This document shows positions 6,365 to 21,654 of a DNA stretch of 64,000 nt, piece by piece. The position numbers and the translations under genes are program-made. The stretch is from an uncultured delta proteobacterium (GTDB lineage: Bacteria; Myxococcota; UBA727; VGSZ01): assembly GCA_963775425.1 (NCBI GenBank), contig CAVZJB010000011.1, positions 160,001 to 224,000 on the forward strand. The letters are read 5' to 3'. Each line of letters opens with the position of its first letter. Within the stretch, counting starts at the first letter, position 1. The notes under the pieces were generated by a model that did no database searches, was not told where the DNA came from, and worked only from the letters and a program-made list of their open reading frames with translations.

Positions 6365-6670
6365 TCACCAGCGCTTGCCGCCGCGGCCACCGCCGCCGCC
6401 GCCGCCGCCGAAGCCGCTCTCCTTGGGGCGCGCGACGTTCACCGTGAGCGCGCGGCCTTCGTACATCTGCCCGTCGAGGGCGCTGATGGCGGCCTTGGCC
6501 GCCTGGTCGGTGCCCATCTCGACGAAGCCGAAGCCGCGGGAGCGGCCGGTCTCGCGATCGGTGACGATCGAGGAACGATCGACGCTGCCGTAGCTGGCGA
6601 AGAGCTGCGCGAGCTGCTCCTCAGTGGTGTTGAACGAGAGGTTTCCGACGTAGAGCTTGTTTTCAGCCAT
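6365..6670 (-). CDS. RRM RNA-binding protein with Gly-rich tail
   Basis: RNP2 LYVGNL, RNP1 RGFGFVEM, GGGGRGG tail. Confidence 0.95.
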   Translation of the reverse strand: MAENKLYVGNLSFNTTEEQLAQLFASYGSVDRSSIVTDRETGRSRGFGFVEMGTDQAAKAAISALDGQMYEGRALTVNVARPKESGFGGGGGGGGRGGKRW

Positions 6671-6920
6671 TTGAGAACTTTCCCGGGAACTGCTGCGCCT
6701 TCCCACCGTCACCCATTGACGGCATGGAAGCCCAGCTTCTGGACGCTTGCGAGCGCGCGACGGCTGCTGTTTTGAGGGGCAGTGGGGCGAGCAAACAGGT
6801 CGAACCAGACCTGTGTACAGAGTACGGGCTCGGGCGCACGAAGCAAGATCATTCGACGGGATCGGCTCCGGTGGCGCACGGACGCCGAATTTCCGACCGG
6901 ACGGAGCCGCGGCCGCGCCG

Positions 6921-9596
6921 CTACGGGCTCCGGTGGCATTGCGCGCACTTCTCGGACTTGTGCTCGTAGCCCTGGACGTCCTTGTGGTTCTTGGCCTCGA
7001 TATCGGCGTTGTGCGCGTGGCACTCGGCGCAGCGCACGGGGACCCCGGCGCAGCTCCCTGTGGAGGCCGCGCCGCGCAGGCCGGAGTGGCACTCGTTGCA
7101 GGAGACGGGTGCGTGGACGCCGCGCAGGATCGGGAAGCAGGCCTCGTGCTGCAGGAACGCCGCCGGCGTGAAGGCCACCGGCTGGTGGCAGGTGCGGCAG
7201 TCGGCGGTGAAGGGGGCGCGCGCGTGGTCGACGGTGACGAGCGACGCGCGCGCGGCGTCCTTGGCGTGGCACGCGACGCACGCGAGCGCGGCGCGGCTGA
7301 ATGTGCGCTCGCGCTTCTCGATGTGGCACTCCTCGCAGGGCAGGGCGGCGTGGCGGCCGACCAGCGGGAAGTTCGTGCGCCGGTGCGCGTCGACGGTGAA
7401 GTTGGGCGCGTTGAAGCCGTCCTCGGTGTGGCAGGAGCGGCACATCAAGCCGAACTCCTGCGCGTGCGGATCCTGATGGCAGCCCGCGCAGCTCGTCGGG
7501 ATGGGACGCGACGTATCGCCGCCGTGGCAGTCGACGCAGCCGACGCCGCGGTGCTTGCCGACGAGCGGGAACGGCGTCCTGTCGTGGGCGAAGCGCGCCG
7601 GCGACCACCCCTTGGGCGCGTGGCACGCGTCGCAGCCGACGGCGTTTTTGCCGGTGGCGTCGAGCGCGAGGTGCGCGAGGGCGTCCTCGGGCCCCGCCAC
7701 GGTCGTCGTCGCCGTCTCCGTCGCCGCCGTCGTCGTCGTTGCACCGTGCACGGGGGGCGCCGCCTTCGCGTCCTTCGGCGCGGGCGCCTTCGTCGTCGCC
7801 GCGGCCTCAGCGGGGGCGGGCGCGCGCGACGGGCCGGGGGCCGGCGCGAAGTCGTTGAAGCCGCCCTTGTGCTCGTCCTGGTGACAGCTCGCGCACGCGG
7901 TCGGCAGTGGCTTGTAGCGCGCGGTCTTCAAGGTGCCGGTGTCGATGACCTCGTGGCACGCGGCGCAGCGCGCGGTCTTGTGCTTGCCCTCGAGGGGGAA
8001 CGAGCTTTGTTTGTCGTGATCGAACTTGGCCGGCTTGAAGCCCTTGGTGGAGTGGCACTGCTCGCACGCCGTGACGCCGTCCTTGGCGAGCTGGCCGACG
8101 TGTTGGTCGGCGTGGCACGAGGCGCACGCGGTGTCGACGGGCTTGTACATGACGATGCCCCGCATGTGCCCCTTGGCGTCGGCGGCGGGGTAGTGGCACG
8201 CGCCGCACTCCACGGCCTTGTGCTTGCCCGTGAGCGGGAAGCGGCTGTCGTCGTGGTTGAACACGATCTTGTCGAACGACGACGCCTGGTGGCATTGGTC
8301 GCACGCCTTGCCCTTGTCGCCGCTGAACTGCCCGCCGTGCGGATCGCGGTGGCAGGCCTCGCACTTGCCCGTGGCGTCGGGCAGCGCCAGCTTCACGTCG
8401 CTCACCAGGAGCGGGCGGCCGTGGCGCGACAGCTCGCGCCTCACCGACGACGGCACCTTGCGCAAGAGCCCGCGGTCGCTCTTGTGGCAGAGGTTGCAGG
8501 CGACGGCGCGGTGGGAGCCGGCGAGGGCGAAGCGGGTGTCGTCGTGCATCTTCACGTCGAAGAGCACCGGGGTGAAGCCCGTGACCGAGTGGCACTTCTC
8601 GCAGTCGGCCTTCACTTGCCCTTCGTGTGCGTCGGCGTGGCACGCGCCGCAGGTCTCGTGCTTCAAGCCCTTGAACACCGCGCGCTGTCCGGGGAACGGA
8701 CCGTGGCAGCTCTTGCACGCCACCGACGTGTGCTCGCCGCGCAGCGGGAACTTGGTCTTGTCGTGGAAGCCTGTGTCGTGCGCGGTCTGCTTGATGACCT
8801 TCCAGCCGCTCTCGCTGTGACACTTGACGCAGTTCTTGCCGAACTCGCCGTGGTGCACGTCGTCGTGACACGCGAGGCAACTGTTCTGGCCGATGCCCTT
8901 GAGCTGCATCTGCATGTACGTGCGCGCGCGTGGCTTGGGGAACGCGTCCATGCGCGTGCTCTCGTCGGTGGCGTCCTCGTGGCACTTGGCGCATGCCACG
9001 GAGTTGTGGCGGCCCTTCAAGCGGAAGTCGGCGAGCGGCGGCTTGTGCACGAAGCGCGTAGGCTTCCAGTCGTCGTTGCCGTGACAGCGCGTGCACTCGT
9101 TGCCCTCCTGGCCGCGGTGCTCGTCGAAGTGACACTTGGTGCAGGCCGACGACAGGCCGAGGAACGTGCGTGTCCGCTTCTTTTCCGTGAGGAGCTTCTT
9201 CACTGCGCCGTCGAGGATGCGCCGGGCCTCGTGACAGTCGCGGCAGTCGTTCTTCTGGTGGGCGCCGTGGAGCGGCCAACCCGTGAGCGCGTGGTTGAAG
9301 CTCCGCATGGACCAGTGGATGAGCGAGTCGCCGGTGCCGCCCTTGTGCTCCTTGTGGCACTCGGCGCACAGCTCGTTCTTGTTGCGCGCGTGGTAGCCGA
9401 CGCCCTGGTCGATGCGCGACGCGATCTCCTTGTGGCAGGCGAGGCACTTGGGGTTCGAGTGCTTGCCGCCCTCCTCGTGGCACTTGGTGCACGACGTCAG
9501 GCCGTCGAGCTGCTTGTGCGCGCTCGACAACGGCCCCGGCGAGAACACCTGCGCCGCGATCTGCGCCGAAGACAGGAGGATGACGGCCGCAATCAC
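6921..9596 (-). CDS. Periplasmic multiheme cytochrome c (30 CxxCH)
   Basis: 30 CxxCH counted; repeated FxHxxxxFPLxGxH units; N-terminal signal then FSPGPLSSAH; GTGA overlap with the upstream stop. Confidence 0.92.
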   Translation of the reverse strand: MIAAVILLSSAQIAAQVFSPGPLSSAHKQLDGLTSCTKCHEEGGKHSNPKCLACHKEIASRIDQGVGYHARNKNELCAECHKEHKGGTGDSLIHWSMRSFNHALTGWPLHGAHQKNDCRDCHEARRILDGAVKKLLTEKKRTRTFLGLSSACTKCHFDEHRGQEGNECTRCHGNDDWKPTRFVHKPPLADFRLKGRHNSVACAKCHEDATDESTRMDAFPKPRARTYMQMQLKGIGQNSCLACHDDVHHGEFGKNCVKCHSESGWKVIKQTAHDTGFHDKTKFPLRGEHTSVACKSCHGPFPGQRAVFKGLKHETCGACHADAHEGQVKADCEKCHSVTGFTPVLFDVKMHDDTRFALAGSHRAVACNLCHKSDRGLLRKVPSSVRRELSRHGRPLLVSDVKLALPDATGKCEACHRDPHGGQFSGDKGKACDQCHQASSFDKIVFNHDDSRFPLTGKHKAVECGACHYPAADAKGHMRGIVMYKPVDTACASCHADQHVGQLAKDGVTACEQCHSTKGFKPAKFDHDKQSSFPLEGKHKTARCAACHEVIDTGTLKTARYKPLPTACASCHQDEHKGGFNDFAPAPGPSRAPAPAEAAATTKAPAPKDAKAAPPVHGATTTTAATETATTTVAGPEDALAHLALDATGKNAVGCDACHAPKGWSPARFAHDRTPFPLVGKHRGVGCVDCHGGDTSRPIPTSCAGCHQDPHAQEFGLMCRSCHTEDGFNAPNFTVDAHRRTNFPLVGRHAALPCEECHIEKRERTFSRAALACVACHAKDAARASLVTVDHARAPFTADCRTCHQPVAFTPAAFLQHEACFPILRGVHAPVSCNECHSGLRGAASTGSCAGVPVRCAECHAHNADIEAKNHKDVQGYEHKSEKCAQCHRSP

Positions 9597-11815
9597 GGCA
9601 GGATCCACTTGAAGCCGAGGTACAGGCTCACGCCCACGTGGGCGCCGATGAGGACCACCATGAACAGCGCGAGCACCACGTGGATCACGAGCCAGCCACG
9701 GAAGAGGCGCTTGAGGCCGGCGTAGAACGAGATCTGCAGACGCGAGCGCGCGATGAGCATGAGGCCGCTCTTGAAGGTCTCGAAGGCCTTGGCGTCGACG
9801 AAGTAGGGGCGCGCGCTCTCGATGCTCCTGTGCAGGTGGCGGCGCGCCCGCGGATCTTCGACGACGGCGCGGAAGAACGAGCGCTGCTTGGGCGCGGCGT
9901 CGGCGAGGGCGAAGAGCTGGTGCACCAGCTCGGCGTTGGTGGCGTCCTCGAGGTGGGGCTCCATGCGTTTGCGGATGTCCTGAAGCTGCGTGCGCACCTC
10001 GGAGAGCGCCAACACCTTGCCGGCCTGCGCGGGCACGAACCCGAAGAGGAAGCGGCCGATGACGCCGGTGCCGACCACGATGGACAGGGCGATCCAGGTC
10101 CACACCGCGAGCAGGTTGTTGAGCATGAACGCCGCGTGAAACGCGATCACCAGCGGGCTCATGATGCCGACGAACATGTGGAACGTGAGCCACGTGCGGA
10201 TGGACGCGGTCCCCTTCAACGCCCGCCAGCGCTTCCGCAGCGCGTACAAGAAATTGAAGATCATGAACGTGGTGGCGATGACGCCGACGCCGTGGCCCCA
10301 CAGCCCGGCGGGCTTGAGGAACTCGTCGCCGGGCAGCCCCGCGCGCGCGTCCACCGGGAACGTGTAGTAGTCGCGCCCGACGAAGAAGAGGCCGGTGATG
10401 ATGGCCGAGCCGAGCGCGAACAGGAACAGCGCGAGCCGCCGCCGGGTGCGCGCCTCCACCTCCGCCTTGGTCGGGCCGCGCGCGGGGCCGCCCGCGCCCT
10501 TCTCCTCGCCGAGGTACTTGCGGATGGCGACGCCGACGGACTTCAAGAACGCGGTGGGCACCTCGCCGCCGGCGGAGACGATGACGCGATCGTTCTTGAG
10601 GCGCCCCTCGCCGTCGGCGGTGTCGAGGACGACGGCGCGGTCCTCGATGCTCTTCACCTGGCTGCTGAACAGCGCGCGCACGCGGCCCTCGTCGATGAGC
10701 CGTTGGACGTTGTCGCGGTTGCGGGGCTTGGCGCGCGAGAAGCTCGACTGGCGGTACGAGATGCTGACTTTGGCGGTGCTCTCCTCGGCGAGCTGTACGG
10801 CGGCTTCGACGGCGGAGTCGCCGCCGCCGACGACGAGGACGCGCTGCCCGTGGTACTGCTCTGGATCGACGAGGCGGTACGTGACCTTGTCGAGGTCCTC
10901 GCCGGCCACGCCGAGCTTGCGCGGCGTCCCGCGCAACCCGGTGGCGAGCACCACCGCGCGCGCCTGCACGGCGAGGCCGCGCGACGTGGTGATGGTGAAC
11001 ATGCCCGCCTGTCCCTCGATGCCGACGACCTTGTGGCCCTCGTCGACCTTGATCTCGTTCTTCTGCAGCACCACCTGCAGCTCGGAGAGCAGCTCCTCCT
11101 TGGACAGGAGCGAGCGGCCGAACTTGCCGTAGCCCGGCACCATCACCTGCTCGCTCATCACCACCTTGCCGCGCGGGTAGTGGGCGATGCAGCCGCCGAG
11201 GGTCTCCTGCTCGAACACCCGCGCGACGAGGCCCTGCTCCTTGCAGGACACGGCGCACGCGATGCCGGCGGGGCCGCCGCCGACGACGGCGACGTCGACG
11301 AGGGTGCCTTGCGCCTGCGTGCCCTTCAGCTTGCCTTTCAGCGAGCGCCCGACGTCGATGCCCTGGCGGAGCGCGTTCTTGATGAGGCCCATGCCGCCGA
11401 GCTCGCCGATGACGTAGACGCCCGGCCGGCTCGACTCGAACTTGTCGTCGGTGTCGGGGAGGTCGACGCCCTTTTCGGCCGAGCCGAACACGAGCTTGAT
11501 GGCGCCGACGGGGCACTCCACCGCGCAGCGCGCGTGGCCGATGCAGTGCGCGGCCTCGACGAGGGTGGCGACGCCGCCGACGACGCCGATGATGTCGCCC
11601 TCGGGGCACGCCTTGATGCACGAGAAGCTGCCGATGCACAGCGTGGGGTCGATGACGGGGTGGAGCGACGGCGGCGTGCTCTGTCCCTCGGCGACCGCGA
11701 GCTGCAGCGCGCGCTCGCCCGCCGTGGACATCGCGCGGCGACGGAACAAAAGGATGACGATGGCCGCCAGCAGGACGGCCGCGACGGTGAAGGAGATGAT
11801 CAGCGTGTCACTCAC
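9593..11815 (-). CDS. Membrane oxidoreductase: N-terminal TM, ferredoxin-like domain, TrxB/YpdA-like FAD/NAD(P) domain, His-containing TM (cytochrome b-like) domain
   Basis: CIGSFSCIKACP and CIGHARCAVECP; VGGGPAG; VLATG; VGGGDSAVE; TM His in TFHMF, AFHAA, VIHVV, GAHV. Start uncertain (11812-11839). Confidence 0.85.
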   Translation of the reverse strand: MSDTLIISFTVAAVLLAAIVILLFRRRAMSTAGERALQLAVAEGQSTPPSLHPVIDPTLCIGSFSCIKACPEGDIIGVVGGVATLVEAAHCIGHARCAVECPVGAIKLVFGSAEKGVDLPDTDDKFESSRPGVYVIGELGGMGLIKNALRQGIDVGRSLKGKLKGTQAQGTLVDVAVVGGGPAGIACAVSCKEQGLVARVFEQETLGGCIAHYPRGKVVMSEQVMVPGYGKFGRSLLSKEELLSELQVVLQKNEIKVDEGHKVVGIEGQAGMFTITTSRGLAVQARAVVLATGLRGTPRKLGVAGEDLDKVTYRLVDPEQYHGQRVLVVGGGDSAVEAAVQLAEESTAKVSISYRQSSFSRAKPRNRDNVQRLIDEGRVRALFSSQVKSIEDRAVVLDTADGEGRLKNDRVIVSAGGEVPTAFLKSVGVAIRKYLGEEKGAGGPARGPTKAEVEARTRRRLALFLFALGSAIITGLFFVGRDYYTFPVDARAGLPGDEFLKPAGLWGHGVGVIATTFMIFNFLYALRKRWRALKGTASIRTWLTFHMFVGIMSPLVIAFHAAFMLNNLLAVWTWIALSIVVGTGVIGRFLFGFVPAQAGKVLALSEVRTQLQDIRKRMEPHLEDATNAELVHQLFALADAAPKQRSFFRAVVEDPRARRHLHRSIESARPYFVDAKAFETFKSGLMLIARSRLQISFYAGLKRLFRGWLVIHVVLALFMVVLIGAHVGVSLYLGFKWILP

Positions 11816-11863
11816 GACGCGTCCGCCTCGACGAGGCACGTCCCGCGAGCAACTCGCGTGCCG

Positions 11864-11953
11864 TGATCAGCGACCCGAGGGAGCGGCCGCGCTTGATCAA
11901 GCGACCGGAGGGAGCGGCCGCGCTTGATCAAGCGACCGGAGGAGCGATCGCGC
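11864..11953 (+). repeat. Tandem array (about 3 x 31 bp) of a dispersed REP-like element
   Basis: TGATCA(A)GCGACCGGAGGGAGCGGCCGCGCT repeated; same core recurs at 32515, 55525, 53373 (reverse) and 6248. Confidence 0.8.
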
Positions 11954-11976
11954 GGAGCACCGCCACCGACCATGCC

Positions 11977-12783
11977 TCACATCCCCATATAGAGGAGCAC
12001 GCCGCCGGTGCCCGCGAGGGCGACGCCGACACCGGCGACGAGCAGCATGGCGGTGGCGACGTTGGCGGCGCCTTCCTTGGCGGGGCCGAGGGAGTCGGGG
12101 TCGCGGATGATCCCCACCTGGCTGGCCGCGACAGCGCCGCCGCCGAGGCACAACAGCGCGCCGCCGCCGAGCGCGGCGATGCCGCCGACCGCCATGGGCG
12201 TGAGCGCCACGGGCGGCGGATCCGCCGGCGGCGCCTCGGGCTGAAGCGGCTTCATGCCGGGATCGCCCTTGGCCGTGCCCGTGGTGGGGTGGGGCGGGGC
12301 GGTGGTGCTCGTCGACGTGGAGGTGGCGGCCGTGGGGGGCTTGGCCTTGTCAATCGCGCCCTTGAGCGCCTTGATGACGGCGGCGGGGACCACGGAGCCG
12401 CCGCCGAGGACGTCGTCGGCGCGGGCGGCGCTCTCGTCCTGGGCGATGGAGCGGCCGTCGGTGTTGACGAGGTGGGCCTCGAGCTGCACCTGCCCGCCGG
12501 CGCGCAAGGCCTCGACCCAGACCAGCCACGTGGCGTCGGCGGTGCGGAGCACCTCCTTGGCGCACGCGTGATCCGTGAGGCACTCGGTCTTCACCGACAG
12601 CGCCTTGGACAGCGCCCACAGCTCGGCGCCGGTGCCGTTGATCTCCGCGTCGACCTTGTCCTGCACGTGGCGGGCGTCGTCGTCGGCGAAGCCGGCGGTG
12701 TGCACGACGACGGCGACGCGCGTGCCGCCGGGCGCCGCGGCGAAGCTCAACGCCGCGGCGAGGACTGCTGCGCCGAGGGTCAC
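11977..12783 (-). CDS. Hypothetical exported protein with C-terminal hydrophobic hairpin (kinase-coupled)
   Basis: Signal peptide; C-x5-C motif; Pro/Thr linker; two C-terminal hydrophobic segments; 4-nt overlap with the kinase stop. Confidence 0.7.
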   Translation of the reverse strand: MTLGAAVLAAALSFAAAPGGTRVAVVVHTAGFADDDARHVQDKVDAEINGTGAELWALSKALSVKTECLTDHACAKEVLRTADATWLVWVEALRAGGQVQLEAHLVNTDGRSIAQDESAARADDVLGGGSVVPAAVIKALKGAIDKAKPPTAATSTSTSTTAPPHPTTGTAKGDPGMKPLQPEAPPADPPPVALTPMAVGGIAALGGGALLCLGGGAVAASQVGIIRDPDSLGPAKEGAANVATAMLLVAGVGVALAGTGGVLLYMGM

Positions 12784-14756
12784 GACCGGATCCTCCCGAG
12801 CGCGGCAAAGGCGGCGTTCAGCGTGCGGTTGGCGGCGTCGTACTTTCCGTCTTTCATCTCTCTCAAGACCTCGCCCGCCAGAGCGTCAAGCTGTTTTCGT
12901 GCGGCCGCGTCGGGGGCGGTCGCATCGTAACGCTCGTTGAACCGTAACAGTTTTTTTCGAACGAACCCTTTGTCGATTTCGATGGCGTCGGCGCGCCGTC
13001 GCGCGTCGAGCGCCATGTCGCCGGCCTCGGAGAATCGCCGCGTCCGGGCGGCGTTGAGCACGCGTGCCCGGAGCCTGTCGAGCTCGCCGTCGTCGCCGGA
13101 CTGAAGGCCCTTTTGCGCCAGCAGTCGATCGAGGGCCGCTCGTTGCTCGGCGTAGTGCCGCTGGTCGGTGGCTCGGGTGTCTCCGTGGTGCGCCCGCGGC
13201 CGGGGCGCGTGCGACGGCGGCGCGGCGTGCTCGGCCTCCTCCGCCGTCGCCGGCGGGTCCTCGGCGTCGGGGGCGGGATCCGGGGCGGGATCGGCCGGCG
13301 GATCGGCGGGCGGATCGGCGGGGGGATCGTCGGGCGGATCCGCCGGCGCGGCGTCGGCAGCCGGCGGATCGGCCACCGTCGCGGGCTCGTCACGGGCGTC
13401 GCGCGCGACGACGACGGCGACGGCCACGACGGCGACGGCGGCGGCGACGCCGAGGAGCGGCTTGAGCCTGCTCTTCCCGGGGCCGAGCAGCGCTTTGTCC
13501 TCGTCGCTGACGACGCGCAGCGCCGGCTGGGGCAGGAGCTGGGTGTCCTTGGCGAGGAGCGCGGGCCCCGCGGGCTGGCCGCCGATCACCCACGACGCGG
13601 ACGACCGCGGGTCTTCATCCACGCGGATGGCGCTTTCGAGCCGCGGCGGCGCGCGCGCCGGCTCCTCCGCGGGGTCGGTGGGCGGCAGGCTGACGATGGT
13701 GACGTCGGCGGTGAGCGGCGGCGCGTTTTCATCGGTGCTGTGGGCGGGCTCGTTTTCGTCCGTGGTGCGCACCGGTCCGCGCGTGAGCGTGGGCGCGTCG
13801 GGGCGCACGGGAGGAGGCGGGCGGGTCAGCGGGTCCGGCTCCGACGACGTGTCTCCCAACGAGACCGGCATCGGCGACGGAATCGTCTTCACGTCGTCGT
13901 CGGGGATGCTCTTCTCGATGTCCGCGAGCGCGCGCGCGAGGGCGCGGGCATCGGGGTAGCGCTCGTCCGGGGAGAAGGCGAGGGCGCGCAGCGCGATCGG
14001 GCTCACGGCGGCGGGGAGATCCTTGCGCACCAGGTGCGGAGGCGGCGGGCGCGACTTGGACATCGCCTCGAGGAGCATGACGTCGCTGCTCGCGGAGAAG
14101 GGCATCTTGCCGGTGAGACAGTTGTAGAAGATGACGCCGACGCCAAACTGGTCGGATCGGGGCGTCGCCGGCCTCCCCGCCCAGACCTCCGGCGCGATGT
14201 AGTGGCGCGTGCCGAGGGCCACGCCGGGGAGCGTGAGCGACGAAGCGCCGTCGAGCGCCTTGGCGATGCCGAAGTCGAGCAGCGTGACCTCGTCGTCGTC
14301 GCGCACCATGATGTTGCGCGGCTTGAGGTCCCGGTGGACGACGCCGACGTCGTGGGCGGCGGCGAGGGCGTCGCAGATGTTGCGGCAGATGGCGAGGGTG
14401 CGGCGCACGGGGAGCGGTGGGACGTCGGCGCCGAGGAGATCGCGCAGCGGGATGCCGTCCGCGACCTCCATGGTGATGAAGCGGACGCCCTTGTCCTCGT
14501 GCAAGTCGTGGAGCCGGCAGACGCCTTTGTGCACGATGCGGCGCGCGAGCACGATCTCGCGGTTGAAGCGCTCGACGGCCTCGGGGTGCGCCGCGAGCGC
14601 GGGGTGCAACACCTTCACGCAGAGGCGCTGCTTGAGCAGCGTGTCCTCGGCGAGGAACACCATGCCCATGGCGCCGCGCCCGAGCTCGCGCTCGAGGCGA
14701 TAGCGGCCCAGCCGCTCGCCGGCTCTCAGCTGGTCGGCCTGCATTTCGGAGGTCAC
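12780..14756 (-). CDS. Membrane Ser/Thr protein kinase
   Basis: LGRGAMG, CVK, HRDLKPRN, DFG, YIAPE; TM; DPPA repeats. Start GTG 14756 or ATG 14744. Confidence 0.92.
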   Translation of the reverse strand: MTSEMQADQLRAGERLGRYRLERELGRGAMGMVFLAEDTLLKQRLCVKVLHPALAAHPEAVERFNREIVLARRIVHKGVCRLHDLHEDKGVRFITMEVADGIPLRDLLGADVPPLPVRRTLAICRNICDALAAAHDVGVVHRDLKPRNIMVRDDDEVTLLDFGIAKALDGASSLTLPGVALGTRHYIAPEVWAGRPATPRSDQFGVGVIFYNCLTGKMPFSASSDVMLLEAMSKSRPPPPHLVRKDLPAAVSPIALRALAFSPDERYPDARALARALADIEKSIPDDDVKTIPSPMPVSLGDTSSEPDPLTRPPPPVRPDAPTLTRGPVRTTDENEPAHSTDENAPPLTADVTIVSLPPTDPAEEPARAPPRLESAIRVDEDPRSSASWVIGGQPAGPALLAKDTQLLPQPALRVVSDEDKALLGPGKSRLKPLLGVAAAVAVVAVAVVVARDARDEPATVADPPAADAAPADPPDDPPADPPADPPADPAPDPAPDAEDPPATAEEAEHAAPPSHAPRPRAHHGDTRATDQRHYAEQRAALDRLLAQKGLQSGDDGELDRLRARVLNAARTRRFSEAGDMALDARRRADAIEIDKGFVRKKLLRFNERYDATAPDAAARKQLDALAGEVLREMKDGKYDAANRTLNAAFAALGRIRS

Positions 14757-14905
14757 AGTACACCCACCTGGTCTCTCTACGCCCGCGCACGTCCGACGCG
14801 AGCGCCGCGTGCGCCGCCCGCGTGCGCGCCCGCGTGCGCGCCCGCTTCGCCTCGCATGGAGCCACACGCGGCGGGCGCGCTCCGGTGGCGGCGGGCGCGT
14901 CGATG

Positions 14906-14921
14906 TGGCGCAGGGGTTGCT
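14906..14921 (+). promoter_or_regulatory. Putative sigma54 (-24/-12) promoter
   Basis: TGGCGC-AGGGG-TTGCT with exact GG-N10-GC spacing, 40 nt upstream of ATG 14962. Confidence 0.55.
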
Positions 14922-14961
14922 TCGCGATCGCGGTCCACGTCGGACGACGTAGGATCGCCCC

Positions 14962-15840
14962 ATGAAGACCTTGCCCTCTTTCCTGATTCCCGCCGCCCTC
15001 GCCGCCGTGTTCTTCGGGGTCCTTGGCGCCGGGTGCGCCGCCCTCCTCGCCGACGCCCCTTGCAGCAGCGATCAGAACTGCCCGAGCGGCCAGCTCTGCA
15101 GCGACGGAGTCTGCGCCCCGGCTGACGTCGTCGCCGAGGGCGAGGGCGAAGGAGAAGGAGAGGGCGAAGGAGAAGGCGAGGGCGAAGGCGAGGGCGAAGG
15201 AGAGGGAGAAGGCGAAGGAGAGGGCGAAGGCGAAGGCGAAGGCGAGGGCGAAGGCGAAGGCGAGGGCGAAGGAGAGGGCGAAGGAGAGGGAGAAGGCGAT
15301 CCCTGCAGCCCCGGCGGCACCGTCAACAGCGTCGACCAGTTCTCGGGCTGCACCGCCGTCACCGCGGACATCACCCTCACAGGTGGCTCGCTCACCGGGC
15401 TCTCGGGGGTCGAGACCGTCAACGGCAGCCTCAGCATCAGCAACATCGAGAACAGCCTCAACAACCTGGGTGCGCTCCAGACCGTGTCCGGGGATGTGAC
15501 GTTCAGCGGCGGCGACACCAACAGCGGCGCGGGCAACGCCCTCGGCAACCTCCAGAGCATCGGCGGCGACCTCGTCATCCACAACGGCGGCGTCGATCTG
15601 CACACCATCAACGGCTACGGCCAGCTCCAGACCATCGGCGGCTCGCTCGTCATCCACAACAACTCGGCGCTCACCAGCGTGAGCGCCACCGCGTTCGCGA
15701 GCCTCACGTCGATCGCCGGCTCGCTCGACCTCGACCAGAACCCCGTCCTCGCGTGCACCGGCGGGGTGCCGAGCCTGAAGACCGCGGCGGGCGACCGCGT
15801 CACGCTCGGCACCAACGGAACCGCCGGATGCACGCCCTGA
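14962..15840 (+). CDS. Lipoprotein with Cys-rich module, (EG)27 linker and receptor-L-domain-like beta-solenoid
   Basis: LGAGC lipobox; CSSDQNCPSGQLCSDGVC; LQTIGGSLVIHNN repeats. Confidence 0.85.
   Translation: MKTLPSFLIPAALAAVFFGVLGAGCAALLADAPCSSDQNCPSGQLCSDGVCAPADVVAEGEGEGEGEGEGEGEGEGEGEGEGEGEGEGEGEGEGEGEGEGEGEGEGEGEGEGDPCSPGGTVNSVDQFSGCTAVTADITLTGGSLTGLSGVETVNGSLSISNIENSLNNLGALQTVSGDVTFSGGDTNSGAGNALGNLQSIGGDLVIHNGGVDLHTINGYGQLQTIGGSLVIHNNSALTSVSATAFASLTSIAGSLDLDQNPVLACTGGVPSLKTAAGDRVTLGTNGTAGCTP
15136..15297 (+). repeat. Coding repeat, (Glu-Gly)x27
   Basis: 162 nt of GAR-GGN. Confidence 0.95.
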
Positions 15841-18287
15841 GCGCAGCGCGCTGCTGCGCTGTCCTCGCGGTCATCGCCGCGACCGGCTGCGCGCCGAAAG
15901 CGCCCGCGCTCACCTTCGGCGTCAGCACCGGCGAGCACGACGCCTATTTCCTCATCGGCAGGGGGGAGCACCACGCGCTCGGCAAGCGCGCCGACGACGG
16001 CCCCATCCAGTGCAGCTCGTGCCACGCCGCCGGCAGCGACAGCTTCACCGAGTTCTCGTGCACCGGCTGCCACGAGCATCGCCAGGACGTCACCACCGGC
16101 ATCCACTCCGGCATCGCCGAGTTCCGCTACGACAGCGCGAGCTGCCTGTCCTGTCACCCCGGTGGCAACGCCGACATCGACGGCATCGACGACGCGACGC
16201 ACACGCGCGAGTACTTCCCCATCGACGATCACAGCGCGCACAAGGCGGTGCAGTGCTCCGGTTGCCACACGCACGCCGACGACCGAACCATCGTCACCTG
16301 CACCGGCTGCCACGACCACGCCGCCGACGGGCAGGAGGTGCACGGCTCGGCGGAGCTGCAGGCGGTGCACGGGCAGATGACGGGCTACGCGTGGGACACG
16401 CAGAGCTGCCGCGATTGTCACGCGAAGAGCGAGAACCCGGGCAGCTACGATCACACGGCGTTCCCGACGGCGGCGGGCACGTCGCACGAGGGCATCTCCT
16501 GCGCCGCGTGTCACGCCACGCCGCAGGATCGCTCGCAGCTTTTGTGCGTCACCTGCCACGAGCACAACCAGGTCGAGACCGACGCCGCGCACGCCGACGT
16601 CCCCGACTACCGCTACGACTCCGGCAGCTGCGTCCTCTGCCACGCCCAGTCGCAGGTGCCCGGCGAGATCGATCACTCCACGTTCTTCCCCATCGACACC
16701 GGCGCCACGCACGCGCTCGGCACCGTCGTGGACAACGCCGGCCTCGTCCCCGACGAGACCATCGCCTGCACGTCGTGCCACAAGAACCCCACCGACAACT
16801 CGCAGGCCACGTGCCTCGGCTGCCACGCGCACTTCGAGGACGTGCTGCAGCCCATCCACGACGGCATCGCGGGCTATGCGTGGCAGGACTCGAGCTGTCT
16901 GTTCTGCCATCCGCACGGTGAGCCCGACGGCTACCTCTCCGAGCACCCCGAGTTCCCCATCGCGTCGGGCGACGCCCACCAGGGCATCGCGTGCGCGGAG
17001 TGCCACGCGTCGCAGACGGATCGCTCACAGCTCCTGTGCACGTCGTGTCACGTGCTCACCGACATGGAGCCCGTGCACCGGAGCCTGCCGGGATGGCAGT
17101 TCGACAGCACCGCCTGCTTCACGTGTCACGCGCAGTCGCAGGTGCCGGGGACGTTCGACCATGAGCCCTACTTCCCGCTCGTCGGCACGCAACACGCGCT
17201 CGGCGCCCCGAACAACCTCGTGTGCACCGACTGCCACAGGGACCGCACCAACCGCACGCTGCTCGACTGCACCGGCTGCCACCTCGGCAGCCACGACCAG
17301 GCGCCGATGAACACGGCGCACACCGGCGTCCCGAGCTACTCGTGGACGCCGGCGTCGTGCGTGGGCTGTCACCCGAACGGCACCGCCGCCGGCGCCGTGT
17401 TCTCGCACCCCTACTTCCCCATCACGGCCAACGACACACACGGGCAAAACGGCATCGCCTGCGCCGACTGCCATACGAACCCCGCCGACAACACCGTCGT
17501 CGAGTGCACCGCGTGCCACCTGGGCAGCCATGATCAGACGCCGATGACGCAGCGGCACGCAGACGTCCCCGGCTTTCAGTGGTCGACGTCCCAATGCCTG
17601 TTCTGCCACCCCAACAGCGAGCCCGTCGGCAACATCGATCACGCGCGCTTCTTCCCGATCACGGCGGGGTCCGCGCACGCGGGCATCGCCTGCGCCGACT
17701 GCCACATCGATCCGAACAACCGGCAGACGCTCGGCTGCGCGCAGTGCCACCAAGGCGACACCAACCCGACCATCGCGGCGGTGCACCAGGGCATCCCGGG
17801 CTTCGCGAGCACGTCGACGGCATGCCTGCAGTGCCACCCGCACTCGGAGTCGGTCGGGACGATGGATCACCAGGCCTACTTCCCCATCGGCGCGGGCTCC
17901 CAGCACGCGTCGGCGGCGTACGCGGCCAAGATCGCCTCAGGGCAGAACCAGTGCTCGGCGTGCCACGTCTCGCGCACCGATCGCACGCAGGAGAATTGCG
18001 CGAGCTGCCACGCCGGGGTCTCGCCGACGCCGTCGTCGTCCCACGGCTCCGTCGGCGGCTTCTCCAACAACTCCGTGAATTGCAAACAGTGCCACGGTGA
18101 TGCGCAGGTGGACACGCTTCGGTCGCACACCGTATTCAGCCCTACACACCACCGGGCCAAATGCATCGACTGCCACCGCACCTTCCGCAGCGACAAGCCC
18201 TTCGCCATCAATTTCACGCAAGGCGTGTGCACCAAGTGCCACTCGTCGTCGTGCACGGTGAACAACAGGAACGCATGCGGCGACTGA
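15828..18287 (+). CDS. Multiheme cytochrome c lipoprotein (29 CxxCH, triheme repeats)
   Basis: IAATGC lipobox; 29 CxxCH counted, arranged as nine FPI..H..CxxCH..CxxCH..H..CxxCH units plus two. Confidence 0.92.
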   Translation: MHALSAARCCAVLAVIAATGCAPKAPALTFGVSTGEHDAYFLIGRGEHHALGKRADDGPIQCSSCHAAGSDSFTEFSCTGCHEHRQDVTTGIHSGIAEFRYDSASCLSCHPGGNADIDGIDDATHTREYFPIDDHSAHKAVQCSGCHTHADDRTIVTCTGCHDHAADGQEVHGSAELQAVHGQMTGYAWDTQSCRDCHAKSENPGSYDHTAFPTAAGTSHEGISCAACHATPQDRSQLLCVTCHEHNQVETDAAHADVPDYRYDSGSCVLCHAQSQVPGEIDHSTFFPIDTGATHALGTVVDNAGLVPDETIACTSCHKNPTDNSQATCLGCHAHFEDVLQPIHDGIAGYAWQDSSCLFCHPHGEPDGYLSEHPEFPIASGDAHQGIACAECHASQTDRSQLLCTSCHVLTDMEPVHRSLPGWQFDSTACFTCHAQSQVPGTFDHEPYFPLVGTQHALGAPNNLVCTDCHRDRTNRTLLDCTGCHLGSHDQAPMNTAHTGVPSYSWTPASCVGCHPNGTAAGAVFSHPYFPITANDTHGQNGIACADCHTNPADNTVVECTACHLGSHDQTPMTQRHADVPGFQWSTSQCLFCHPNSEPVGNIDHARFFPITAGSAHAGIACADCHIDPNNRQTLGCAQCHQGDTNPTIAAVHQGIPGFASTSTACLQCHPHSESVGTMDHQAYFPIGAGSQHASAAYAAKIASGQNQCSACHVSRTDRTQENCASCHAGVSPTPSSSHGSVGGFSNNSVNCKQCHGDAQVDTLRSHTVFSPTHHRAKCIDCHRTFRSDKPFAINFTQGVCTKCHSSSCTVNNRNACGD

Positions 18288-19987
18288 AAGCACTCGCGCG
18301 CGCCGCACCGGCGCGTCCCACGACGGCGGCTCAGCGTCACGCGCGCGGCGCGGCGGGGCTGGTGGCGCTCGTGTGCCTCGTGATCCCCGTGGAGGCGCGC
18401 GCGGCGCCTGTGGCGTCGACGCGCGTCACGTTCGCGACGGCGAGCGCCATCTACGTCGACGCCGGCACCGCCGACGGCCTCGCGCAGGGCGCCAAGCTCG
18501 AGGCGCGGCACCGGCGGCGCGGCGCGGCCTCGTGCACCGTCGTCGAGATCGCCGCGCATCACGCGGTGTGCAAGGCCGACGGCAAGCGCGTGCCCGGCGT
18601 GGGCGATCGCCTGCGCTTCCAGCGCGCCGCCGCCGACGCGCCCGCCGCGGTGAAGCCGCGCCCCGACCCGCCCACGCCCGACGCGCTCGCGCCGCTGCGC
18701 AAGAAGGTCGAGGCCGCGCCGTTTCAGAAGGTGGCGTTCAAGAAGGCCCGCCGCGCGGCGCGGCCGGTGTGGACGGCGCGGGGCTCGACGACGCTGCGCC
18801 AACAGGTGTGGGCGACGTCGGGCAAGGACAACGTCTTCGCGCGCCCCTCGCTCGACGCCGGCGCGCGCGCGGGCATCGGCATCTTCCCCGGCCTGTACGC
18901 CGCCGGCGCGCTGCGCGTGCAGGGCGACGTGCTCGCGCCTCCCGAGCAGCGCTTCCGGCCCGGCGAGCTCCAGCTCTACCTGTGGAACGCGTCCGTCGGC
19001 GTCGCCGAGGGCGCCGTCGTCGGCGCCGCCGGCCGCTTCCGCCCCCAGAAGGCGCCCGGCCTCGAGCTCCTCGACGGCGCGCAGGCGGGCTTCCGCGCCT
19101 TCGGCGGCGCGCTCGAGGTGGGCGGCTACGCAGGCGCCATCCCCGACCTCGTCACGCTCGCCCCGTCCATCGACCGGCTCACCGGCGGCGCCTACTTCTC
19201 GCTCGACCTCGCGGCGGCCAAGGACGTCCTCGTCCTGCCGCGCGCGCGCGTCGGCCTCGTGAGCACCCCCGACGGAAAGACCGTGCGCGCGCTCGCGGAG
19301 GCGGAGACGCAGGTGCTCATCGACGGCGTCGTCGCCGCCGGCGGCTCCGCCCGCGTCGGCGCCGGCGGCACCGACGACCCGCTGCCCACCCTCGACGCCG
19401 CGCGCGCCGACCTCGACGTGCACACGGGCCCGCTGCACGTGGACGCCGGCTACCGCTACCTCGCGCCGCTCGCCGTCGACTTCGACGCGGCCTCGGGCGT
19501 CCCCACGGTGGGCGGCGCCCACCACGGCGACCTCGAGGCGCGCTACGCGCTGTCGTCGTGGCTCGTGATCGGCGCGGACAGCGGCGCCGGCTACGACGTC
19601 GCCACGCGCAGCGCCCGCGGCTACGCAGGGCCCATGGTCGAGCTGCCCACCGCGTTCGGCACGCTCGGCGGCCTCGAGCTGGGCTACGCCGAGGAGGCCG
19701 ACGTCGCCAAGATCCGGTGGAGCGGGCGCACGGCGTACCTCGCGGCCACCGTGTCGCCGCTCGACGTCGTTCGCATCGTCACGCGCGCCTCCTACTTCGA
19801 GGACGCCGCCATCAACGACTCGCTGCGCGAGGCCGCGCTGATGACGCTCATCGACGCGCCCGTGCTGCCGTGGCTGTCGGTGCGCGGCCGCGCGCAGGTG
19901 CAGGCGGCGCTGGCGCCTCTCGACGGCAGCACGCGCGCGTCGCCGACGACGCTTGTGGCGGATCTGGGCCTCTCCGGCTCTCTGTGA
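18275..19987 (+). CDS. Probable outer-membrane beta-barrel protein
   Basis: Signal peptide (ARA); small N-terminal domain; alternating hydrophobic strands; ends LVADLGLSGSL; overlaps the cytochrome stop. Confidence 0.6.
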   Translation: MRRLKALARAAPARPTTAAQRHARGAAGLVALVCLVIPVEARAAPVASTRVTFATASAIYVDAGTADGLAQGAKLEARHRRRGAASCTVVEIAAHHAVCKADGKRVPGVGDRLRFQRAAADAPAAVKPRPDPPTPDALAPLRKKVEAAPFQKVAFKKARRAARPVWTARGSTTLRQQVWATSGKDNVFARPSLDAGARAGIGIFPGLYAAGALRVQGDVLAPPEQRFRPGELQLYLWNASVGVAEGAVVGAAGRFRPQKAPGLELLDGAQAGFRAFGGALEVGGYAGAIPDLVTLAPSIDRLTGGAYFSLDLAAAKDVLVLPRARVGLVSTPDGKTVRALAEAETQVLIDGVVAAGGSARVGAGGTDDPLPTLDAARADLDVHTGPLHVDAGYRYLAPLAVDFDAASGVPTVGGAHHGDLEARYALSSWLVIGADSGAGYDVATRSARGYAGPMVELPTAFGTLGGLELGYAEEADVAKIRWSGRTAYLAATVSPLDVVRIVTRASYFEDAAINDSLREAALMTLIDAPVLPWLSVRGRAQVQAALAPLDGSTRASPTTLVADLGLSGSL

Positions 19988-20031
19988 CGAGGCGTCCCAC
20001 CCGCACCGCGGGGGGCGGGTAACATCGGGCC

Positions 20032-21650
<1,619 letters not shown>

Positions 21651-21654
<4 letters not shown>

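What the first reader, a model, noticed from the sequence alone, without database searches (positions are those of the whole stretch)
6921..19987. Divergent locus resembling a complete cytoplasm-to-surface electron conduit (59 heme motifs)
Seen: the left arm encodes an FeS/FAD/NAD(P) membrane oxidoreductase translationally coupled to a 30-CxxCH exported cytochrome. The right arm encodes an EG-stalk lipoprotein, a 29-CxxCH lipoprotein cytochrome and a probable beta-barrel, all overlapping. Known: porin-cytochrome conduits (MtrCAB, Geobacter Pcc) combine a periplasmic multiheme, a barrel and a surface multiheme lipoprotein, and are normally fed by quinol oxidases. Inference: this one could link directly to NAD(P)(H), bypassing quinones. 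The direction of electron flow is unknown.
Basis: partly seen in the sequence, partly recalled or inferred. Interest (0 to 1): 0.8.

Follow-up and report, generated by a model that had tools for sequence, protein, structure and literature searches.

The report
NAD(P)H-linked porin-cytochrome electron conduit
This locus encodes what looks like a complete electrical wire from cytoplasmic NAD(P)H through both membranes to the cell surface, a fused variant of a gene-cluster type ("PCC3") that is known only from sequence and has never been tested.

Summary
On the minus strand, a 748-aa membrane protein overlaps by 4 nt (GTGA) the start of an exported 30-CxxCH cytochrome. It has an N-terminal anchor, two Fe-S motifs, an FAD/NAD(P)H flavoprotein and a C-terminal five-helix domain. 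On the plus strand, an EG-repeat lipoprotein, a 29-CxxCH lipoprotein cytochrome and a 570-aa protein overlap by 13 nt each. The 570-aa protein folds as a 22-strand outer-membrane barrel.

New here:
- The C-terminal domain carries two invariant WxxxHx13H helices and a (S/T)GxxG helix. This is the published signature of the ~300-aa inner-membrane protein of "PCC3" clusters.
- The two arms belong together. A paralogous locus in the same genome has cytochrome, barrel, oxidoreductase and 30-heme cytochrome on one strand. In 401 genomes of the phylum, 110 have both proteins and 269 have neither. Of 117 barrel matches, 90 lie within 10 kb of the oxidoreductase.
- Ignavibacteria carry the same parts as separate genes.
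- A complex prediction puts the cytochrome's last 10-heme module inside the barrel (score 0.78, best control 0.00).

Best reading: a quinone-independent, outward NAD(P)H-to-surface conduit. Nothing has been tested experimentally.

The parts
9593..11839 (-). Fused inner-membrane oxidoreductase (748 aa): N-terminal anchor helix, two Fe-S motifs, FAD/NAD(P)H flavoprotein, and a C-terminal five-helix putative di-heme-b domain
   Evidence: Third-position GC is 0.96. Pfam matches are Fer4_10 and Pyr_redox_3. NCBIfam YpdA scores 164 bits, below its 339.9 cut-off. Start candidates are GTG 11839 and GTG 11815.
11492..11662 (-). Fe-S domain (aa 60-116): motifs CxxSxxCxxxCP and CxxHxxCxxxCP
   Evidence: Pfam Fer4_10 matches at E 2.9e-7. 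C68, S71, C74, C78, C99, H102, C105 and C109 are invariant in 11 of 11 fused and split homologues.
10517..11296 (-). Two-Rossmann flavoprotein (aa 182-441) with FAD and NAD(P)H glycine motifs
   Evidence: Pyr_redox_3 matches at E 6.3e-44. G187, G189, P190, A191, G192 and G338-D341, A343, E345, S361, Y362, R363 are invariant.
9596..10477 (-). C-terminal membrane domain (aa 455-748): WxxxHx13H on helices 3 and 5, (S/T)GxxG on helix 4, and a cytoplasmic helical insert
   Evidence: H62, H100, H114, H266, H280, W96, W262, T137, G138 and G141 are invariant in 19 of 19 sequences. Pfam Ferric_reduct matches at E 3e-4, 21.3 bits, below its 28-bit cut-off. The AlphaFold2 model has pLDDT 85.1 and is all-helical.
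6921..9596 (-). Exported 30-heme cytochrome c, a fusion of a 20-heme module (aa 1-585; 7842-9596) and a 10-heme module (aa ~650-891; 6924-7649)
   Evidence: It has 30 CxxCH motifs. Pfam matches include Cytochrome_C7 and Cytochrom_c3_2. It is 40-45% identical to separate 20-heme proteins and 41-48% identical to separate 10-heme proteins of relatives. Its start overlaps the upstream stop as GTGA.
15828..18287 (+). 29-heme lipoprotein cytochrome c, the presumed outer or surface partner
   Evidence: It has 29 CxxCH motifs. It has a lipobox-like IAATGC. It is a repeat-expanded relative of the 8-14-heme lipoprotein cytochromes found upstream of the barrel in relatives (30-40% identity in several registers).
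18275..19987 (+). Outer-membrane 22-strand beta-barrel with a small N-terminal beta domain (invariant C87, C99)
   Evidence: It has no Pfam or NCBIfam match. AlphaFold2 gives pLDDT 83.4. Foldseek's top hits are all outer-membrane barrels. VIA-align gives Occ porins Z 17.5, FyuA Z 17.2 over 360 aa, and MtrB Z 12.9.
14962..15840 (+). EG-repeat stalk lipoprotein with a Receptor-L-like domain; membership in the conduit is uncertain
   Evidence: The translation is. Pfam Recep_L_domain matches at E 8e-7. A homologue sits at the same place in the nearest relative, L048. The EG stalk is generic, with 218 such ORFs in the genome.
12780..14744 (-). Ser/Thr protein kinase with a C-terminal membrane segment, upstream of and co-directional with the left arm; a possible regulator
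   Evidence: Pfam Pkinase matches at E 9e-41. It is conserved at the same position in L048 (46% identity).
11977..12783 (-). 268-aa membrane protein of unknown function between the kinase and the oxidoreductase
   Evidence: It has no family match. It is conserved in L048 (42% identity).
20032..21654 (+). Second Ser/Thr kinase, 45 nt downstream of the barrel gene
   Evidence: Pfam Pkinase matches at E 1.6e-38. It is absent at this position in L048.

Best explanation
The locus encodes an envelope-spanning electron conduit of the PCC3 type. Its inner-membrane entry protein is fused to an NAD(P)H-oxidising iron-sulfur flavoprotein.

Proposed path:
1. Cytoplasmic NAD(P)H reduces FAD.
2. Electrons pass through two Fe-S clusters. 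Each has three Cys ligands plus Ser or His.
3. They cross the inner membrane on two b hemes held by the Hx13H pairs of helices 3 and 5.
4. They enter the 30-heme periplasmic cytochrome.
5. The last 10-heme module of that cytochrome sits inside the 22-strand outer-membrane barrel.
6. Electrons reach the 29-heme lipoprotein cytochrome at the outer face.

No quinone step is needed. Flow is outward, because NAD(P)H (about -320 mV) is a stronger reductant than multiheme cytochromes, and the membrane potential also favours exporting electrons. Such a path pumps no protons. It would therefore serve to dump or deliver electrons (redox balancing, or reduction of extracellular Fe(III), Mn(IV), humics or O2) rather than to conserve energy.

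Shown here: gene content, motifs, predicted folds, conserved linkage, and the fused and split forms.

Inferred: cofactor binding, NAD(P)H use, topology, surface exposure, direction of flow and physiological role.
For: 1. Domain content. Pfam finds Fer4_10 and Pyr_redox_3.
- Six Fe-S cysteines, both glycine motifs and an SYR motif are invariant in 11 of 11 fused and split homologues.
- The C-terminal domain has five invariant His, including two i/i+14 pairs each preceded by WxxxH, and T/SGxxG, in 19 of 19 sequences.
- It has a sub-threshold Pfam Ferric_reduct match (E 3e-4).
- He et al. 2017 give exactly these features for the PCC3/PCC4 inner-membrane protein: five helices, SGxxG on helix 4, and two Wx3Hx13H on helices 3 and 5, likened to the NOX/FRE haem-b domain (passages read).

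2. Topology.
- Positively charged loops lie after the N-terminal helix, before helix 1, between helices 2 and 3, and after helix 4.
- This places the flavoprotein in the cytoplasm and the C-terminus in the periplasm (sequence; inference from the positive-inside rule).

3. Translational coupling to the 30-heme cytochrome (GTGA).

4. The barrel.

5. Linkage.
- The same genome holds a paralogous one-strand cluster on contig C4: 8-heme lipoprotein cytochrome, barrel, 962-aa oxidoreductase, 30-heme cytochrome.
- Of 401 genomes of the phylum, 110 have both barrel and membrane domain, 5 have the barrel only, 17 have the membrane domain only (weak hits), and 269 have neither.
- Of 117 listed barrel matches, 90 have the membrane domain on the same contig within 10 kb. 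86 are on the same strand, and in 83 the oxidoreductase is upstream.
- In 20 fetched loci, the full oxidoreductase was present in 17.

6. Independent split form.
- In 47 Ignavibacteria loci of at least 20 kb, 44 have the ~290-aa membrane protein.
- 42 have a separate ~445-aa Fe-S flavoprotein (E 1e-100 to 1e-116 to the window's N-terminal half).
- 41 have a 20-heme cytochrome, and 42 have a further 9-83-heme cytochrome.
- 36 have all four.

7. Complex model of the barrel with the 10-heme module.
- The ipSAE score is 0.78 (runs 0.47, 0.78, 0.80), and the best of 3 controls is 0.00.
- That mark was reached by 58 of 80 solved complexes and by 2 of 110 mismatched pairs.
- The runs share at least 63% of contacts, and the partner's pLDDT is at least 73.
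- The contacts fall on alternate residues of nearly every strand, that is, on the lumen face.

8. A cytochrome c maturation gene is present in the genome.
Against: - There is no experiment and no expression data.
- Fold searches with the C-terminal domain were inconclusive. Foldseek gave nothing at E <= 1e-3; SpNOX 8qq7 ranked 45th and NOX2 ranked 32nd. VIA-align's top Z was 9.4, and the di-heme CybB 5oc0 scored Z 7.8, tied with many unrelated helical proteins.
- The Pfam Ferric_reduct score is below the curated cut-off.
- He et al. proposed a quinone-active role for the free-standing membrane protein, and a quinone site cannot be excluded.
- The complex model could pass by likeness to the solved MtrAB complex.
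- The cytochrome's signal peptide in this window has no basic N-region.
- In the nearest relative with the same divergent layout (L048), no cytochrome gene precedes the barrel. The 29-heme protein is therefore not a constant part.
- Two of the 20 loci (L042, L050) have a barrel and cytochromes without the oxidoreductase.
- Both Fe-S motifs lack a cysteine, so the cluster type is unknown.
- Many carriers belong to families with 9-11 Mb genomes, for which metal respiration is not established. The acceptor is unknown.
Confidence: 0.55

Rival explanations
1. The hardware is the same, but the five-helix domain exchanges electrons with the quinone pool, as proposed for the free-standing PCC3 membrane protein. 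The fused flavoprotein would then be a side entry or a regulatory or repair module rather than the main donor.
For: He et al. 2017 model the membrane protein as a quinone-active cytochrome b (passages). In the profile search, many of the best 150 matches are ~285-310-aa free-standing forms. Locus L046 has a membrane-domain homologue for which no flavoprotein part was detected.
Against: The flavoprotein is fused in Myxococcota and encoded next door in 42 of 47 Ignavibacteria loci. Linkage this tight in two phyla fits an obligate partner. No quinone-binding motif was identified, and none was searched for.
Confidence: 0.15
2. The chain ends at the outer membrane or in the periplasm rather than outside the cell. 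It would supply NAD(P)H-derived electrons to a periplasmic or outer-membrane reaction (for example detoxifying oxidants or reducing a soluble compound). The barrel would act as an anchor or substrate channel, and the large cytochromes would act as electron stores.
For: Surface exposure of the lipoprotein cytochrome is untested. The nearest relative (L048) lacks it.
Against: The complex model places a heme module through the barrel lumen. Lipoprotein cytochromes of 8-51 hemes directly precede the barrel in most loci, as in known porin-cytochrome systems.
Confidence: 0.15
3. Electrons flow inward. The conduit would take electrons from extracellular Fe(II), minerals or a partner cell and use them to reduce NAD(P)+.
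For: In the literature, PCC3 clusters were found in, and discussed for, iron-oxidising bacteria (passages).
Against: This follows from established bioenergetics, not from a tool. Fe(II) and mineral couples are far more positive than NAD(P)+/NAD(P)H. Moving electrons into a negative-inside cell also works against the membrane potential. No energy-coupling subunit is encoded in the cluster.
Confidence: 0.07
4. The two arms of this window are functionally independent neighbours.
For: They are on opposite strands and are separated by two unrelated genes.
Against: See the paralogous one-strand cluster on C4, the 90 of 117 linked pairs, and the cross-arm complex model.
Confidence: 0.05

Closest known systems
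PCC3 (and PCC4) putative porin-cytochrome c gene clusters of neutrophilic Fe(II) oxidisers (He et al. 2017, PMC5566968; Gallionellaceae survey, PMC9900912; Sideroxydans sp. CL21 preprint 10.1101/2025.02.27.639646)
   Same: - The parts list matches: outer-membrane barrel, extracellular multiheme cytochrome with many hemes, periplasmic cytochrome of about 21 hemes, and a five-helix membrane protein with SGxxG and two Wx3Hx13H motifs.
- Like PCC3, it is known only from sequence. The preprint says its function has not been tested (passages).
   Different: - Here the membrane protein is the C-terminal domain of a 748-aa protein that also carries Fe-S and FAD/NAD(P)H domains.
- The periplasmic cytochrome is a 20+10-heme fusion.
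- The host is a Myxococcota heterotroph lineage, not a proteobacterial iron oxidiser.
- The main texts of He 2017 and PMC9900912 contain no mention of FAD, flavoprotein or pyridine nucleotide in this context, nor of Myxococcota or Ignavibacteria.
- PCC4 subgroup II has a separate Fe-S gene (pfam13247) upstream of the membrane protein.
MtrCAB / MtoAB / PioAB porin-cytochrome complexes (solved: 6R2Q)
   Same: The logic is the same: a periplasmic decaheme-type module inside a barrel and a lipoprotein cytochrome outside. The complex model gives the same inserted arrangement.
   Different: - The barrel has no match to any Pfam or NCBIfam family.
- MtrB is only rank 43 by structure (Z 12.9).
- The barrel has 22 predicted strands, against the 26 recalled for MtrB.
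- The DmsE/MtrA model TIGR03508 scores 47 bits against a cut-off of 192.
- Mtr is fed by quinol dehydrogenases (recalled), not by a flavoprotein.
Geobacter Pcc (OmaB-OmbB-OmcB) and the two-gene Pcc cluster reported for Anaeromyxobacter (Shi et al. 2014, PMC4245776)
   Same: It has a porin, a periplasmic cytochrome and a lipoprotein cytochrome, and it occurs in Myxococcota.
   Different: Shi et al. describe for Anaeromyxobacter only a two-gene cluster, a porin plus a 12-heme cytochrome of 338-344 aa (passages). They describe no inner-membrane or flavoprotein component.
NADPH oxidases / ferric reductases (NOX, FRE, bacterial SpNOX)
   Same: The principle is the same: cytoplasmic NAD(P)H, then flavin, then two stacked b hemes held by paired His on two helices, to an acceptor on the other side of the membrane.
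   Different: - The domain order is reversed.
- The flavoprotein is of the two-Rossmann Pyr_redox_3 type, not the FNR type.
- An Fe-S relay is inserted.
- There are five helices, not six.
- The Pfam score is below threshold, and no significant fold match was found.
- The acceptor is a multiheme cytochrome.

Membership tests
PCC3-type porin-cytochrome cluster (He et al. 2017) | Outer-membrane beta-barrel gene in the cluster | tested here: met
   AlphaFold2 predicts 22 strands. The top matches in Foldseek and VIA-align are all outer-membrane barrels.
PCC3-type porin-cytochrome cluster (He et al. 2017) | Periplasmic multiheme cytochrome with about 21 (21-27) hemes | tested here: met
   A 20-heme module with a signal peptide is present. 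Here it is fused to a 10-heme module.
PCC3-type porin-cytochrome cluster (He et al. 2017) | Extracellular multiheme cytochrome with many hemes (10-35 or more) | tested here: inconclusive
   A 29-heme protein with a lipobox-like motif is present. Its location outside the cell cannot be tested with these tools, and it is absent from the nearest relative, L048.
PCC3-type porin-cytochrome cluster (He et al. 2017) | Conserved ~300-aa inner-membrane protein: five helices, SGxxG on helix 4, Wx3Hx13H on helices 3 and 5 | tested here: met
   All motifs are invariant in 19 of 19 sequences, with T in place of S in some. The model is helical. Here it is present as a fused domain, and free-standing in Ignavibacteria.
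PCC3-type porin-cytochrome cluster (He et al. 2017) | Sequence homology to the founding PCC3 proteins of Sideroxydans lithotrophicus ES-1 or Leptothrix | not tested
   No tool gave me those sequences.
MtrB/PioB porin family and MtrA/DmsE decaheme family | Match to the curated sequence models | tested here: not met
   The barrel matches no Pfam or NCBIfam family, even at E <= 10. TIGR03508 scores 47.1 and 40.2 bits against a cut-off of 192.2.
MtrB/PioB porin family and MtrA/DmsE decaheme family | Specific structural likeness to MtrB | tested here: inconclusive
   6r2q_B scores Z 12.9 at rank 43, below generic porins and TonB-dependent receptors.
Ferric reductase transmembrane domain (PF01794; NOX/FRE/MsrQ) | Two His pairs spaced by 13 residues on two helices | tested here: met
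   H100/H114 and H266/H280 are invariant.
Ferric reductase transmembrane domain (PF01794; NOX/FRE/MsrQ) | Score above Pfam's gathering threshold | tested here: not met
   The score is 21.3 bits (E 3e-4) against a cut-off of 28.
Ferric reductase transmembrane domain (PF01794; NOX/FRE/MsrQ) | Fold match to solved NOX/FRD domains | tested here: inconclusive
   SpNOX 8qq7 has probability 0.44 and E 3.6, and NOX2 7u8g has E 3.1. Neither is among the top 50 of VIA-align.
Pyridine nucleotide-disulphide oxidoreductase class (Pyr_redox_3; YpdA/TrxR-like) | Pfam domain above threshold with FAD and NAD(P)H glycine motifs | tested here: met
   The score is 150.9 bits against a cut-off of 30. The motifs are invariant.
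Pyridine nucleotide-disulphide oxidoreductase class (Pyr_redox_3; YpdA/TrxR-like) | Equivalog of YpdA or thioredoxin reductase | tested here: not met
   TIGR04018 scores 164.1 bits against 339.9. TIGR01292 scores 69.7 bits against 343.45.

The most novel reading that the evidence does not exclude
Many Myxococcota, Ignavibacteria and (per unchecked earlier notes of this scan) other phyla may own a quinone-independent, two-membrane-spanning NAD(P)H:extracellular-acceptor oxidoreductase, in effect a bacterial NOX-like enzyme extended by tens of c hemes to the cell surface. If so, the 'PCC3' clusters now read as iron-oxidation machinery would in these lineages be electron-export devices. They could serve redox balancing, extracellular Fe(III), Mn(IV) or humic reduction, or deliberate production of extracellular reduced oxygen species by predatory soil bacteria.
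Probability: 0.4. Interest if true: 0.8.

Novelty: new variant of a known kind. Interest (0 to 1): 0.7.

Why it matters
Known routes for extracellular electron transfer in Gram-negative bacteria start from the quinone pool. How PCC3-type clusters connect to metabolism is an open point: the literature assumes a quinone-active membrane protein and has no experiment.

The fusion seen here and the conserved split form in a second phylum name a concrete cytoplasmic partner. They make the question testable with one protein: does it carry FAD, Fe-S and two b hemes, and does it move electrons from NAD(P)H across a membrane?

If it does, three things change:
- the reading of PCC3 genes used as iron-oxidation markers in metagenomes;
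- the assumption that electron export always requires quinones;
- the options for bioelectrochemical engineering, since this would be a compact, genetically linked NAD(P)H-to-electrode module.

Tried and rejected
- **Long ORF 6921-11639.** I rejected it as a 1572-aa protein. Third-position GC by frame shows two genes.
- **Promoter and terminator scan of 6500-20500.** It found 0 promoter-like sites and 4 terminator-like sites, against 5.5 expected. This is uninformative.
- **Sequencing runs.** None was listed for 9000-18999, and no RNA holder was listed. Co-expression is therefore untested.
- **Fold searches with the C-terminal domain.** They gave no clear match. NOX and CybB appear only among weak, tied rows.
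- **ESM Atlas.** The nearest clusters are unnamed hypothetical proteins of 312-345 aa from Acidobacteriota, Gemmatimonadota and Myxococcota (scores 0.89-0.91). This is a lead only.
- **Word-based search for short homologues.** It returned mostly fragments of fused proteins on short contigs.
- **Cluster look-up of 10 free-standing membrane proteins.** It named only one, from a Polyangiales MAG.
- **The search for related loci with broad alignments A4 and A5.** The narrower A6 worked, but it reached Ignavibacteria, not the proteobacterial PCC3 founders.
- **Shi et al. 2014 Pcc cluster of Anaeromyxobacter.** I considered it as the same system and rejected that on its description: two genes and a 12-heme cytochrome.
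- **PMC10553843.** I read passages for Myxococcus and NADH, and they were irrelevant.
- **Literature searches for the flavoprotein partner or fusion.** I saw listings only, apart from the papers named above, and found no description of it.
- **Supplements.** They are closed. He et al.'s Supplementary Tables 3-5 and Figure 4 list the bacteria carrying PCC3/PCC4 and the domain architectures of neighbouring redox genes. They could already contain such neighbours.

Full report
**1. What is in the sequence**

The window is about 72% GC, so plain ORF lists are full of spurious frames. Third-position GC by frame and start-codon inspection give the following map.

Minus strand:
- Ser/Thr kinase, 12780-14744.
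- 268-aa membrane protein, 11977-12783.
- 748-aa oxidoreductase, 9593-11839.
- 891-aa cytochrome, 6921-9596. Its GTG start overlaps the oxidoreductase's TGA stop (GTGA).

Plus strand:
- EG-repeat lipoprotein, 14962-15840.
- 819-aa cytochrome, 15828-18287.
- 570-aa protein, 18275-19987.
- A second kinase, 20032-21654.
- The first three plus-strand genes overlap by 13 nt each.

The cytochromes carry 30 and 29 CxxCH motifs. Residue shuffles give means of 0.33 and 0.42 and never more than 4. Only 18 open frames in the 8.26-Mb genome have four or more such motifs. A cytochrome c maturation gene is present. One correction applies: two unrelated genes lie between the arms.

**2. The oxidoreductase**

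Pfam finds a dicluster ferredoxin domain (aa 60-110) and a two-Rossmann Pyr_redox_3 flavoprotein (aa 185-439, E 6e-44). NCBIfam's closest models (YpdA, thioredoxin reductase) score far below their cut-offs, so it is not one of those enzymes.

I aligned five Myxococcota N-terminal halves with six separately encoded Ignavibacteria homologues. The following are invariant:
- six cysteines;
- both glycine motifs;
- an SYR motif after the NAD(P)H-domain strand.

Each CxxCxxCxxxCP motif has Ser (S71) or His (H102) in place of the second cysteine. The clusters are therefore either 3Fe-4S or mixed-ligand 4Fe-4S. This is my inference.

The last 294 residues have no Pfam match above threshold. They score 21.3 bits (E 3e-4) on the ferric-reductase transmembrane model. 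In 19 sequences, H62, H100, H114, H266, H280, W96, W262, T137, G138 and G141 are invariant. This gives two WxxxHx13H helices and a (S/T)GxxG helix.

AlphaFold2 gives a confident all-helical model (pLDDT 85.1, pTM 0.73). Fold searches found nothing decisive.

Charged loops place the flavoprotein in the cytoplasm and the C-terminus in the periplasm. This is an inference from the positive-inside rule.

**3. The barrel**

The 570-aa protein had only 31 word-search homologues, all unnamed, and no family match even at E 10. With 26 aligned homologues, AlphaFold2 predicts a signal helix, a small beta domain with two invariant cysteines, and 22 strands (pLDDT 83.4).

- Foldseek's best hits are all outer-membrane barrels (MOMP at E 6e-9, ushers, Occ porins, AlgE).
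- VIA-align gives Occ porins Z 17.5 and the 22-strand receptor FyuA Z 17.2 over 360 residues.
- MtrB scores only Z 12.9, at rank 43.

It is a barrel, but it is not a recognisable MtrB relative.

**4. The arms belong together**

The same genome has a second copy on contig C4 in which all parts lie on one strand:
- an 8-heme lipoprotein cytochrome;
- a barrel paralogue;
- a 962-aa oxidoreductase paralogue with a charged insertion;
- a 30-heme cytochrome.

Across 401 genomes of the phylum:
- The barrel profile matched 115 genomes.
- The membrane-domain profile matched 127 at E <= 1e-10.
- 110 genomes have both, 5 have the barrel only, 17 have the membrane domain only (all weak hits), and 269 have neither.
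- Kin are not independent, so this is a description, not a test.

Of the 117 barrel matches listed:
- 90 have a membrane-domain match on the same contig within 10 kb (median gap 2.8 kb).
- 86 are on the same strand, and in 83 the oxidoreductase is upstream.
- Most of the 27 unlinked ones sit on short contigs.

These counts include one genome flagged unpublished (G195). No claim depends on it.

I chose 20 loci for long contigs and family spread:
- 17 hold the full oxidoreductase.
- L046 holds only a membrane-domain homologue.
- L042 and L050 hold none.

The usual order is oxidoreductase, 20-heme cytochrome, 10-heme cytochrome, often an 8-14-heme cytochrome, then the barrel.

The window's 30-heme protein is a fusion of the 20-heme protein (40-45% identity over aa 1-585) and the 10-heme protein (41-48% over aa ~650-889). 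The 20/30-heme and 10-heme proteins have signal peptides. A lipobox-like motif was found in 10 of 12 small cytochromes next to barrels. The window's 29-heme protein is a repeat-expanded relative of these.

The closest relative with the same divergent layout (L048) keeps the kinase, the 268-aa protein and the EG lipoprotein. It has no cytochrome before the barrel.

**5. A split form in another phylum**

A profile of the membrane domain found 3871 cluster representatives at E <= 1e-3, and 412 at E <= 1e-30. Among the best 150 are both ~740-770-aa fused forms and ~285-310-aa free-standing forms. The free-standing forms share every motif.

Four of them led to 554 confirmed places in species genomes. 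The best 80 are all in Ignavibacteria or 'Bacteroidetes' MAGs. In the 47 loci of at least 20 kb:

| Feature | Loci with it (of 47) |
|---|---|
| Membrane protein | 44 |
| Separate ~445-aa anchored Fe-S flavoprotein | 42 |
| 20-heme cytochrome | 41 |
| Further 9-83-heme cytochrome | 42 |
| All four of the above | 36 |
| Weak barrel-profile hit | 18 |

The separate flavoprotein is 40-43% identical to the window's N-terminal half. A fusion in one phylum and adjacent genes in another is classic evidence for a functional partnership.

**6. Complex model**

I co-folded the barrel (aa 40-570, 26-row alignment) with the 10-heme module (16-row alignment).
- The score was 0.78 (runs 0.47, 0.78, 0.80), and the best of three controls was 0.00.
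- That mark was reached by 58 of 80 solved complexes and by 2 of 110 mismatched pairs.
- The runs share at least 63% of contacts, and the partner's pLDDT is at least 73.
- Contacts fall on every second residue of almost all strands, so the module is placed in the lumen.

The model supports binding but does not show it. The solved MtrAB complex could be the source of the likeness. The folds were made without hemes.

**7. Comparison with what is known**

He et al. 2017 (PMC5566968; passages and section 16 read) defined PCC3 as four parts:
- a porin;
- an extracellular cytochrome (median 34 hemes);
- a periplasmic cytochrome (median 21 hemes);
- a ~300-aa five-helix membrane protein with SGxxG and two Wx3Hx13H motifs, likened to the NOX/FRE heme-b domain and proposed to be quinone-active.

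They reported it in Alpha-, Beta- and Gammaproteobacteria. Later work treats PCC3 as a possible iron oxidase and says its function is untested (PMC9900912 and preprint 10.1101/2025.02.27.639646; passages).

Neither He 2017 nor PMC9900912 mentions FAD, a flavoprotein or pyridine nucleotides in this context. Seven literature searches gave no paper describing the partner (listings only).

Shi et al. 2014 (PMC4245776; passages) report a different, two-gene Pcc cluster in Anaeromyxobacter.

The window's locus meets four of the five PCC3 features I could list. Direct homology to the founding proteins was not tested.

Earlier AI notes of this scan describe the same flavoprotein-membrane-protein pairing beside giant cytochromes in Planctomycetota, Bacteroidota, Zixibacteria and others. 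I read them after reaching my own reading. They agree with it but are not independent evidence.

**8. Verdict**

It is best filed as a new variant of the PCC3 kind: fused in Myxococcota and split in Ignavibacteria. The variant points to NAD(P)H rather than quinol as the cytoplasmic partner and, on thermodynamic grounds, to outward electron flow without energy conservation. The acceptor and the physiological role are unknown. The EG lipoprotein, the kinases and the 268-aa protein are neighbours of uncertain relevance.

Noticed in passing
window 3928, 15136, 23703, 30848, 55391 (repeat positions) and genome-wide: Runs of eight or more EG dipeptides occur in 218 open frames of the genome. 190 of them have a lipobox-like motif upstream, and five lie in this window. 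This organism seems to use an (EG)n stalk as a standard linker for lipoproteins.
   Followed up: partly
G000:C4:372511-380371 (outside the window): A paralogous one-strand cluster. Its oxidoreductase (962 aa) carries a highly charged, low-complexity insertion of about 210 aa between the flavoprotein and the membrane domain. Forms of 899-991 aa are also common among homologues.
   Followed up: partly
window 11492-11662 (-): Both ferredoxin-type motifs lack their second cysteine: CxxSxxCxxxCP and CxxHxxCxxxCP. Ser and His are invariant in both the fused and the split homologues. The clusters may be 3Fe-4S or His/Ser-ligated.
   Followed up: partly
G000:C11:445630-452295, C11:612649-623208, C5:518955-538910 (outside the window): Further multiheme loci lie in the same genome. 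They include a single open frame with 53 CxxCH motifs and two clusters of 4-16-heme proteins.
   Followed up: no
L037 (G130:C1) 14256-14858: One homologue's membrane domain is only 201 aa. It lacks the cytoplasmic helical insert of about 100 aa between helices 4 and 5 but keeps all the histidines.
   Followed up: no
L101 10842-11489 and equivalent places in other Ignavibacteria loci: A membrane-anchored TPR protein of about 215 aa lies between the membrane-protein gene and the flavoprotein gene. The neighbouring cytochromes reach 83 CxxCH motifs (L106).
   Followed up: no
window 512-4048 (-): A 1178-aa lipoprotein has a 41-unit EG stalk, three repeated cysteine-containing domains and a long Kelch-like repeat region.
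   Followed up: no
L043, L044, L054, L056: Lipoprotein-type cytochromes of 27-29 hemes lie beside the canonical cluster in several large-genome Myxococcota. They did not match the window's 29-heme protein at 60 bits or more, so they appear to be a different family.
   Followed up: partly
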